DNA of 64,000 nt from Okamejei kenojei. Its lineage: Eukaryota. Below are positions 3,701-6,700 of this stretch, in pieces (the first letter of the stretch is position 1; each line of letters opens with the position of its first letter). A model generated the notes under the pieces. It worked only from the letters and a program-made list of their open reading frames with translations, made no database searches and was not told where the DNA came from. The stretch is from the NCBI GenBank assembly GCA_035221665.1, contig CM069174.1:2480001-2544000 (forward strand), written 5' to 3'. Made by a program: the position numbers and the translations under genes.

Positions 3701-6700
3701 GAAGGGCCTGTTTCCACGCTGTATCACTCCGTGACTCTATCAGCAAAGTCGTACTGGGGCCATGGAGGAGGGACTACTGAGATAACAGGATGGGAAATAA
3801 CAATGTCCCACTGGAATAGTGGGATGGGAATCAGCAATGGCCCACTGAGATTGTGTGTAGGAATGAACTGCAGATGCTGGTTTACACCAAAGATGGACAC
3901 AAAGTGCTGGAGTAACTCAGCGGGTCAGGCAGCATCTCTGGAGAGAAGGAATGGGTCAGTCTGAAGAAAGGTATCAACCTGAAATGTCACCCATTCCTTC
4001 TCTTCGGAGATGATGCCTGTCCCGCTGAGTTACCCGAGCATTTTGTGTCTATCCCATTGAGATTATTTATCCCCATTCACTGATCTCCCTCTGCTGCTAA
4101 TGCCCATTGGGATCAGCAAAGCCACACTGGGAAATATGGAAAAGGGACTAGAAATGAGCCACTGTGACCTTGGAATAGGGATCAGTAATATCCCATTGTG
4201 ATTATGGGACATCAGAATCATGGGATTCTGGTTCACCAATGTCCTGATAAAATCATGGGATCAAGTTGAAATGATGTCCAACTGGTGTCATAGAATAAGG
4301 GTGAGCACGTTCTACTGGGTGTGTATGAAGGGACTGCAGATATCAGTTATATCTCACTGCCATCATGAGATTAAGATCAGCATTGACCCACAAGGATCAT
4401 GGGTTTGGGTTCAGCAATGTCCCGATGGGATTGTGAATTGAATACAACTCACAGTGAAATTCTTTGCTTGCATACCTTGGCAAGGTGCTTACAAAGTTAC
4501 AAATTCTCCCCCCCCCCCCCCCCCCCCCCCCAGAGTATAGTATCGGAATCATGCATTTTCCTCCAGGATTGTGAGATAGGGTTTTGCCATGTCCAACAGA
4601 ACATTAGACTGGGATTATCACTGTCTTGCTAGGATCATGGGATAGAGTATCGACACTGACGTCATGGGACAAAGCTCGTGTCTCCCACTGGGATCGTAGG
4701 CTACAAAACATCAGAGTCCCTCTGGAATGATATGACAGAGATCATGGGATAGGCATCAGGAATGTCCCATGGGATAGAGACCAATGGACTTGTCCAGGGA
4801 TCATGGGCAAGGCATCTTCTATGTCCCAGTGAGGTAACGGGATACTGCCAAGCAGCAATTGTCTTTGTGGCAATGGGAAAAGATCATTAAAGTTTCACTC
4901 GTGTTGCAGGGAAACGATTAGCGATGCTTCACTTAAATCAGTAGTACGCCTTATTCGTTTGCATCCTATGTAGTTTGGCATTACTGTCACAACATGGTTC
5001 AAGTAACGTAACCACATTCTCTGGCCTCATGGTTTCATTGGCAGGAATTTGCCAAAGTCCAGAAACCCCAGAATTGAATCATTTCCTACAGTCTACTTTC
5101 CATGCATTGTTAAACATTTCTGTCAGGACGCAGGCATCTTTACCTGTCTTTCCTTGAGAGTCTTCTTTGTATAACCTGATAAATCCCTAACCTCATTACC
5201 TTGTATAATCTTATACATCCCTAACCTCATTACATGCCTCGCCTGTGATGTTTTTGATTCAAGCGCTATTCCAAACTCGCTCCAACACTTTTCTTTCTGT
5301 ATCCTCTTCAAATTTGTTAATCTGCTTCAATTCCACAACACTCCTCTTTGTGTGCTGATCCCTTTTTTTTTAAAGGCATGGTAGTTAATCCTCAACAAAG
5401 CTGACATTCCTGAGCTTGAGGGTACACAAAAGGCTGGAGAAACTCAGCGGGTGCAGTAGCATCTAAGGAGCGAAGGAGATAGGCGACGTTTCGGGTCGAG
5501 ACCCTTCTTCTGACTGGTCAGGGGTCAGGGAAACGAGAGATATTCCTGAGCTTGATTTTGTTTCTGTTGTGACGAGAGGTGTCGTGCTCTGAATTGCAGT
5601 CTGCCTCAGGAATGTGCTGTTAGTAGTTTTCTGCACTTCATGTTCTTTCCATGTATGCAACCTCTCTCTACATACACTGCTGCCTGTCTAGATCACATTC
5701 TCAGATCTTTCTGCTCTCCTTTATGTCAGCCACGGCTTTCAACATGTTTCTGGAAAGCAACTGTTCAAATGGCACGACCTTTATAATCTGTCATTGGTTT
5801 GAAATTGAATTATGTTCAGGTTTCATAATTGAACTTGCCATTTCACTAACATTATCCTGTCAAAAAACACCAATGATATCCTCGACATTTGGTGCATATA
5901 GTATTCATTCCGTAATGCCCCGATACCCAAATACACAGTCCAGGGTGTTGATACCATAGCAGGCAGGAGTTCATCCAGGGTTGTATGAAGCAAATTTCAG
6001 AAGACGTTCTCAATGAGAAGATATCAGTATATTAAGCATAAAACCAAGGATGAATTTCACCATCTCTGTTGTGTTCTTTACATAGTGTGTCTGGTACACT
6101 TTACTTCTCATTATCTCTTCGATATTCTTACATTATACTTAACTACAGACCTCCTTATTCTTTCCATTTCTATTTCCCATTGTTAAATACAATTATACAT
6201 ATAAAATCAGAATCACACTTTATTTGCCAAGTATGTTTTGCAACATACGAGGAATTTCATATATATAAGTATAATGTATAATACTAGTACAAGGTTTTTG
6301 CATCTTTTATTCACATTTTTCTAGCATTTTCACAGGTCCTCTCGAGACAAAAATCATTAAACTAAGTCTCTCACTGGGCCCTCAGTGTCTGTCCACATCA
6401 CATACAAACTGTCAACTTCCTATTTTAGAAATGCATTCGTATATAATCATTATTTATCACCTATATCCACATCCCCGTATATATGTACCCATTTGCACCT
6501 ATGGTTACATATGCACTGATTTATAATTACCCATCCCAATACACTCCTTCATAAACACCTATTCATAACTACATCCAATTCACTATCCACACATAGCCAA
6601 CATGATATAGATAAAGCTCCTGTTACACATATTCATCCATAACTACTTTTGAACACATTGTTCTCTTTACATAGATATCCCCAAACAAATCCATCTATAA

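What the first reader, a model, noticed from the sequence alone, without database searches (positions are those of the whole stretch)
3853..4053. Fold-back element placing a hammerhead ribozyme core at the apex of a ~65-bp hairpin, sense to col2a1 pre-mRNA
Seen: inverted arms 3891-3956 and 3989-4053 enclose CUGAAGA-A-[AGGU auca ACCU]-GAAA-UGUC. The arms could act as a long stem I (2 bp, 4-nt bulge, long helix). Stem II differs from the other copies (GGGUC/GACCC) at both closing bases yet still pairs. Known: Penelope-like elements carry minimal type I hammerheads with a palindromic stem III, thought to cleave as dimers. Inference: a non-autonomous, retrozyme-like fold-back family. The ACGU palindrome is AUGU in this copy, so it may be inactive.
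Basis: partly seen in the sequence, partly recalled or inferred. Interest (0 to 1): 0.7.

Follow-up and report, generated by a model that had tools for sequence, protein, structure and literature searches.

The report
Penelope retroelement fold-back insertion scar
This hairpin in a collagen intron is two short end-pieces of a very common jumping gene (a Penelope-like retroelement) joined head to head, likely in one insertion event, and the small self-cutting RNA motif it carries is a decayed copy that is predicted not to cut, so it is an ordinary feature of this genome.

Summary
The anatomy is real: 65-nt inverted arms (88% complementary) enclose a minimal type I hammerhead core, sense in an intron of a fibrillar collagen gene. 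The reading as a dedicated fold-back family is not supported. The ~140-nt unit is the pseudo-LTR/5' leader of a Neptune-type Penelope-like element (PLE): it follows the RT-GIY-YIG ORF in 28 of 30 loci and precedes the ORF start in 9 of 30. In 759 kb sampled there are 303 arms and 45 fold-backs with 43 different junctions; only 2 of 45 place the core as here. An inverted 5' copy with a 30-40-nt tail at one end is the published PLE insertion signature. In this copy three CpG transitions explain most departures from the family, the A-U stem II pair is mostly double decay (odds ratio 2.2 against 1.7 for an unpaired control), and the long helix competes with the hammerhead's stem I (+4.2 kcal/mol). 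Of some use: about a million arms and over 100,000 cores per genome, 5' ends piling up just before the core, and the tail on exactly one arm in 35 of 45 fold-backs.

The parts
3841..3852 (+). Left copy of a likely 12-nt target-site duplication
   Evidence: 1 mismatch to 4053-4064; caution: the flank is a degenerate 34-nt tandem repeat with a similar word at 4189-4205 (D1 and D9)
3854..3891 (-). 38-nt PLE 'tail' (unit positions 104-141), on this arm only
   Evidence: alignment to natural copy L094; tail described in PMC8557442 and PMC11167929
3892..3956 (-). Inverted, 5'-truncated pseudo-LTR copy (unit positions 39-103); left arm of the hairpin; its 5' end falls on the base after the scissile bond
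3957..4053 (+). Sense pseudo-LTR copy (unit positions 7-103), ends at the family's short end; 12 of 97 bases differ from the column majority
3961..3988 (+). Minimal type I hammerhead: core bases intact; stem II 3969-3980 closed by A-U instead of G-C, fifth pair lost; stem III palindrome AUGU instead of ACGU
3989..4053 (+). Right arm of the hairpin (the part after the predicted cut site)
4053..4064 (+). Right copy of the likely target-site duplication
5424..5516 (-). Other family copy (different subfamily), antisense, core damaged
21503..21593 (+). Other family copy, sense, cut short so that C3-U4 are missing
41475..41682 (.). Second fold-back of the family in the window, core on the minus strand with one core change

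Best explanation
It is two 5'-truncated copies of the hammerhead-bearing pseudo-LTR of a Neptune-type Penelope-like retroelement joined head to head, likely made in one insertion, and its ribozyme is a decayed passenger predicted not to cleave. Shown: unit-ORF linkage, copy number, variable junctions, one-sided tail, target duplications. Inferred mechanism: the element's RNA begins 10-20 nt before the hammerhead; the RT-GIY-YIG protein nicks both target strands about 12-13 nt apart and primes reverse transcription internally at two sites 38 nt apart; priming at the pair of sites near the RNA 5' end can give only 100-140-nt cDNAs; two such cDNAs, one from each site, were joined at their growing ends. 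The core sits at the apex because of where that join fell. In the parent the hammerhead has a 2-bp stem I and would cut only as a dimer, probably with protein help.
For: Unit follows the GIY-YIG ORF end in 28 of 30 endonuclease-hit loci, within about 200 nt of the query end (the query locus is one of the 28); for this copy's own subfamily, 7 of 30 loci show the endonuclease end directly upstream (L105, L107-109, L111, L114, L118). RT motifs, CX4CxxC linker and GIY-YIG by tblastn to a Pfam RVT_1/GIY-YIG ORF of the same genome, best E 3e-70. Whole unit plus tail runs on into the ORF start in 9 of 30 loci, ATG about 34 nt after the tail (sister subfamily); 4 of the 9 begin 10-20 nt before the core. 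L217: 676-bp inverted arm + 2.8-kb RT-EN body, 13-nt duplication, tail on one end. Census of 76 x 10 kb: 303 arms, 45 fold-backs, 213 singles; 43 distinct junctions, 13 with overlap >=3 nt; target duplications in 17 of 44 fold-backs against 17 of 1091 mismatched flank pairs; tail on exactly one arm in 35 of 45, Fisher p 1.6e-4. Same architecture described for PLEs (PMC8557442; PMC2377424); both-strand nicking and extension, two internal start sites bounding the tail, protein-dependent hammerhead (PMC11167929). Decay: ACGT 79, ACAT 32, ATGT 26 of 172 arms; three of five changes in 3961-3988 are CpG transitions. Hammerhead register pair probabilities 0.0005 and 0.0002; AUGU/AUGU duplex +2.6 against ACGU/ACGU -1.7 kcal/mol; no other whole sense core between the VWC exon and the window end.
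Against: All catalytic core bases of this copy are intact, and AUGU can still pair with itself through two G-U wobbles. The nearest-neighbour energies leave out the core's tertiary contacts. The left arm starts exactly at the base after the cut site. The A-U pair is 1.3-fold above the age control, so a small selected subfamily is not excluded (5 of 8 in the census, p 0.013). The same junction occurs in 3 of the 30 best hits (chosen for likeness). The target duplication here lies in a tandem repeat. The ORF-start link was shown for the sister subfamily only. Pfam finds nothing in three degraded L217 fragments. The 5'-end peak is partly inflated by alignment ends; only 25 of 176 singles had a duplication to fix the end. 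No RNA data.
Confidence: 0.85

Rival explanations
1. A self-propagating non-autonomous fold-back family in which the arms supply stem I and make the minimal hammerhead work.
For: Arms hold the two stem I strands together; native stem I is only 2 bp (25 of 46 motifs); 3 of 30 best hits share the junction; core more constant than arms, 0.94 against 0.85.
Against: 43 distinct junctions in 45; this geometry 2 of 45; 13 of 45 hold no whole core and 10 bury it in the duplex; the helix out-competes the needed register by 4.2 kcal/mol; long ORF-bearing copies have the same inversion.
Confidence: 0.05
2. Same element, but the second arm was made by snap-back: one cDNA folded on a local palindrome, copied itself, and the endonuclease trimmed one end, leaving the tail on one side.
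For: Arms of one fold-back agree at subfamily-diagnostic columns in 299 of 374 cases (80%) against 55% when shuffled; joins cluster in the TCAG-T-CTGA and stem II palindromes; PMC8557442 ascribes the tail to endonuclease resolution.
Against: The same agreement is expected if both cDNAs come from RNAs of one source locus; discordance at diagnostic columns (20%) is above that at invariant columns (13%); this copy's arms differ at two diagnostic columns; both strands are extended in vitro.
Confidence: 0.3
3. The left arm was copied from the ribozyme's 3' cleavage product, so the join marks a real cut site.
For: The left arm starts exactly at the first base after the scissile bond.
Against: 6 of 303 arms start at unit positions 37-41 against a mean of 8.75 per 5-nt bin over 21-60; 1 of 25 duplication-defined ends; uncleaved RNA is the main template in vitro; a 12-nt deletion between two GGGT words of a common junction gives the same sequence.
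Confidence: 0.08
4. Two independent insertions that landed head to head.
For: About 400 arms per Mb; the duplication here could be mimicked by the host tandem repeat.
Against: 45 head-to-head against 3 tail-to-tail neighbours; shared duplications; subfamily agreement and one-sided tails.
Confidence: 0.03

Closest known systems
EN+ Penelope-like elements, Neptune (or Nematis) type; insertion structure as in Craig et al. 2021 (PMC8557442, passages read)
   Same: RT followed by CX2-5CxxC linker and C-terminal GIY-YIG; strong 5' truncation; partial tandems forming pseudo-LTRs; inverted 5'-truncated copy next to the 5' end; 30-40-nt tail at one end; hammerhead in the pseudo-LTR
   Different: Scale: about 10^6 arms by extrapolation; most copies are only the 100-140-nt unit; 9-22-nt target duplications are visible; clade placed by motif, not by a tree
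Poseidon of Anolis (PAc), Frangieh et al. 2024 (PMC11167929, parts 1-2 of 4 read)
   Same: Hammerhead near the ORF start; two genomic ends that bound a tail; no sign that cleaved RNA is the template
   Different: Here the ATG lies about 165 nt after the core and after both ends, not in stem II; linker zinc-finger motif present
Minimal PLE hammerheads, Cervera and de la Pena 2014 (PMC4209133, parts 1-2 of 4 read)
   Same: Extra base between 9 and 10.1, G10.1-C11.1 in the family, palindromic 15.2-16.2, pairs of motifs on opposite strands noted there too, 2-bp helix I as in D. virilis
   Different: 119,907 exact stem II-closed cores here against about 4,000 (coelacanth) and 9,000 (Xenopus) called remarkable there, with another descriptor; this copy has A10.1-U11.1 and AUGU
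Non-LTR retrozymes (bioRxiv 10.64898/2026.07.22.740005, part 1 of 5 and passages read)
   Same: Non-coding, type I hammerhead, derived from PLE pseudo-LTRs
   Different: Defined as head-to-tail tandem arrays with a hammerhead in each unit; this is one inverted pair with one core and no fixed unit

Membership tests
EN+ Penelope-like element (Neptune/Nematis type) | Unit linked to an ORF with PLE-type RT and C-terminal GIY-YIG | tested here: met
   window copy itself holds no ORF
EN+ Penelope-like element (Neptune/Nematis type) | CX2-5CxxC linker before GIY-YIG; DKG motif | tested here: met
   CNRRKCYTC and ADKGG in translations
EN+ Penelope-like element (Neptune/Nematis type) | Partial tandem forming a pseudo-LTR with a hammerhead | tested here: met
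   L243, L244, L246, L260, L264: 3' region, unit, then ORF start (sister subfamily)
EN+ Penelope-like element (Neptune/Nematis type) | Inverted 5'-truncated copy and 30-40-nt tail at one end | tested here: met
EN+ Penelope-like element (Neptune/Nematis type) | Placement in the Neptune clade by RT phylogeny | not tested
   no reference PLE set was fetched
Minimal type I hammerhead | Conserved core C3-A9, G12-A15.1, U16.1-H17 | tested here: met
   3961-3988
Minimal type I hammerhead | G10.1-C11.1 closing pair | tested here: not met
   A-U in this copy; G-C in 95,235 of 119,907 genome matches
Minimal type I hammerhead | Palindromic stem III for dimer formation | tested here: inconclusive
   AUGU pairs only through two wobbles, +2.6 kcal/mol; family ACGU
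Minimal type I hammerhead | Stem I adjoining C3 | tested here: inconclusive
   2 bp possible but out-competed in the model
Minimal type I hammerhead | Self-cleavage | not testable with these tools
   needs an assay or raw RNA reads
Non-LTR retrozyme | Head-to-tail tandem units, each with a hammerhead | tested here: not met
   one head-to-head pair, one core
Non-LTR retrozyme | Circular RNA intermediate | not testable with these tools
   no raw RNA reads listed
Autonomous-unit fold-back family (MITE- or SINE-like master copy) | Fixed ends and fixed internal junction across copies | tested here: not met
   43 distinct junctions in 45; ends vary

The most novel reading that the evidence does not exclude
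This genome records, in about 160,000 fold-backs, a rule of PLE insertion: the two cDNAs of one event start at different internal sites (tail on exactly one arm), and priming at the 5'-proximal pair of sites yields a million hammerhead-sized 'strong-stop' fragments that end at the RNA's 5' end. That would make this family the largest genomic hammerhead load seen in the papers I read, a source of long intronic dsRNA, and a natural data set for the unsolved second-strand step. A further, less likely reading (about 0.05): joins like this one now and then give a minimal hammerhead a usable stem I and so an intronic monomer ribozyme.
Probability: 0.4. Interest if true: 0.55.

Novelty: new member of a known kind. 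Interest (0 to 1): 0.25.

Why it matters
The single locus matters little: it is one of roughly 160,000 similar fold-backs and is probably silent. The family is of interest to transposon specialists: how PLEs make tandem and inverted insertions is still open, and the one-sided tail (35 of 45) and the pile-up of 5' ends just before the core are countable footprints of that mechanism. More than 100,000 near-intact hammerhead cores, many in introns, also allow a direct test of whether sense-strand cores are selected against. I found no description of this family in four literature searches, but repeat libraries such as Repbase or Dfam could not be searched and may well hold it.

Tried and rejected
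Rfam scan: no hammerhead model hit; minimal PLE hammerheads fall below these models, so this is no evidence against. Pfam GIY-YIG genome search returned a different, younger PLE family not linked to this unit. Pfam on three degraded L217 fragments: no match. RNA: no RNA holder listed, contigs only; nothing was laid on the intron itself, so expression and RNA ends there remain open; contigs laid on L108 were flagged as probably DNA and gave no usable splice or end signal. Splice-acceptor idea for the CAG before the core: none of 95 truncated singles had an upstream piece matching a candidate earlier exon; not supported, not excluded. An intron between tail and ORF, suspected, was dropped because the ORF reads through it. 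Search for a shared continuation after the tail among 273 tail-complete arms found none; it was found later by a targeted search. Consensus fold had one of 8 rows on the wrong strand; its 'compensatory' counts come from that row and are disregarded. The 'native upstream' labels for paired arms are artefacts (the partner arm); later counts use. Lunse et al. 2016 was not held: seen only in a reference list, its dimer result taken from the review PMC6765202. Protein atlas look-up gave no answer. Earlier scan notes: nothing.

Full report
Observation. The window is G000:C44:2480001-2544000 of a 2.76-Gb genome. The repeat looks to me like one of skates and rays (recalled, no call). Gly-X-Y exons on the + strand flank the site: an N-telopeptide-like exon around 667 and the first helix exon at 7345, with a VWC exon about 7 kb before the window; the C-terminal part matches fibrillar collagens. 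The name col2a1 is recalled. So the element is intronic and its core is sense.

What the unit is. The 30 best genome matches differ in junction and in right end, and most show 10-15-nt flanking duplications by eye. Copies with more 5' sequence run into the end of a GIY-YIG frame. Of 30 loci found with an endonuclease-region query, 28 have the unit in sense about 200 nt past the query end (query locus included). They carry RT motifs, thumb, a CX4CxxC linker and GIY-YIG (tblastn to a Pfam RVT_1 + GIY-YIG ORF of this genome, best E 3e-70). For the window copy's own subfamily, 7 of 30 loci show the endonuclease end directly upstream. Of 30 loci found with the ORF start, 9 have the whole unit and tail running on into the ORF, whose ATG lies about 34 nt after the tail; 5 of them are partial tandems and 4 begin 10-20 nt before the core (sister subfamily). 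The unit is thus the pseudo-LTR and 5' leader of a Neptune-type PLE (type by linker motif per PMC8557442; no tree made).

The fold-back. PMC8557442 (passages) describes an inverted 5'-truncated copy next to the 5' end and a 30-40-nt tail at one end as typical of PLEs; PMC2377424 (passages) shows it for Penelope. The window copy has exactly this: left arm = unit 39-141 with a 38-nt tail, right = unit 7-103 without, and a 12-nt duplication with one mismatch, weakened by lying in a 34-nt tandem repeat. L217 is the same at large scale: 676-bp inverted arm, 2.8-kb RT-EN body, 13-nt duplication, one tail. In 76 stretches of 10 kb at round-number places on contigs C1-C37 (759 kb) there are 303 arms, 45 head-to-head pairs, 3 tail-to-tail neighbours and 213 singles: about 1.1 million arms and 160,000 fold-backs by extrapolation. 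Junctions: 43 distinct in 45, 13 with overlap of 3 nt or more. Duplications: 17 of 44 pairs and 25 of 176 singles against 17 of 1091 controls; lengths 9-22, most often 13. Core position in the 45 pairs: none whole 13, buried 10, partly paired 11, in a larger loop 9, as here 2. Tail on exactly one arm 35, both 2, neither 8; expected 22, 8, 14; Fisher p 1.6e-4. Arms of a pair agree at diagnostic columns in 299 of 374 cases (36 pairs with enough overlap; 9 dropped) against 55% shuffled.

The ribozyme. At family level it is real: 46 motifs in 759 kb against 0 reversed; ten core columns have a mean majority of 0.94, arm columns 0.85, or 0.91 for the 43 of 65 that do not vary by subfamily. Native stem I is 2 bp in 25 of 46 motifs, as for D. 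virilis in PMC4209133 (parts 1-2 read). That paper found no cleavage of a single minimal motif and low cleavage of dimers; PMC11167929 (parts 1-2 read) found cleavage only with the element's protein and no need for it in insertion. In this copy the catalytic bases are intact but five bases in 3961-3988 differ from the majority, three at CpG. ACGT has decayed to ACAT or ATGT in 58 of 172 arms. Stem II closing pair, whole-genome exact counts: G-C 95,235, G-T 19,262, A-C 3,763, A-T 1,647; independence predicts 761, odds ratio 2.16. The same G-to-A change against an unpaired CpG site gives 1.68 (9,390 of 95,235 and 583 of 3,763). Most of the excess is therefore copy age; a residual 1.3-fold is unexplained. 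The register the hammerhead needs (2 bp, 4-nt bulge) is 4.2 kcal/mol worse than the plain helix, pair probabilities 0.0005 and 0.0002; the AUGU duplex scores +2.6 against -1.7 for ACGU. These energies omit tertiary contacts. No other whole sense core lies between the VWC exon and the window end; one lies 15.4 kb before the window start, in or outside intron 1. I put meaningful cleavage of this copy in vivo under 0.1.

Mechanism, inferred. 5' ends of singles pile up just before the core: 18 of 25 duplication-defined ends fall at unit positions -2 to 15 (core starts at 11), 1 at the cut site; arms starting at 37-41 number 6 of 303 against 8.75 per bin nearby. With ORF-bearing copies that start 10-20 nt before the core, this fits an RNA 5' end there. 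Internal priming at two sites (shown in vitro for PAc) near that end gives 100-140-nt cDNAs; priming on both nicked strands and joining at short overlaps gives the hairpin. I favour two-strand priming (about 0.55) over snap-back (about 0.3); the data do not separate them.

Comparison and verdict. It works like, and by the tested features belongs to, EN+ PLEs. It is not a non-LTR retrozyme (head-to-tail arrays; bioRxiv 10.64898/2026.07.22.740005, part 1 and passages; its supplements were not seen and may list a chondrichthyan family). Four searches found no paper on this family; repeat libraries were not available. New member of a known kind; interest 0.25.

Noticed in passing
L043-L044 (G000:C43:9001-29000): Young tandem array, period about 6.3 kb, near a contig start, of a second PLE: a 759-aa RT-GIY-YIG frame preceded by a ~600-aa frame ending in a domain with an IIGDS motif (SGNH esterase-like by recall; no Pfam hit), with its own hammerhead-like motif before that frame. 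Similar copies near the starts of several contigs.
   Followed up: partly
L243-L271, after the tail: A 12-13-nt word that ends at the family's short end is repeated right after the tail end, about one duplication length; it may mark the two priming sites.
   Followed up: no
window 3956-3964: TCAG-T-CTGA before and into the core is a near-palindrome, preceded in long copies by a pyrimidine tract; it could be an initiator or a splice acceptor (D. virilis has an intron end at this place). Many joins fall in it.
   Followed up: partly
window 3777-3844 and 4162-4828: Degenerate 34-nt tandem repeat into which the element is inserted.
   Followed up: no
window 3300-3740 and 48664-49969: Fragments that look like LINE (CR1-type) reverse-transcriptase coding sequence (name recalled).
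   Followed up: no
L173:2456-2652 and L134:5151-5344: Two fold-backs with the same flanks: one old insertion carried along inside another repeat.
   Followed up: no
L142:5727-5980 (minus strand): Unit fragment joined to the ORF 5' region at a short overlap, with a further internal deletion.
   Followed up: partly
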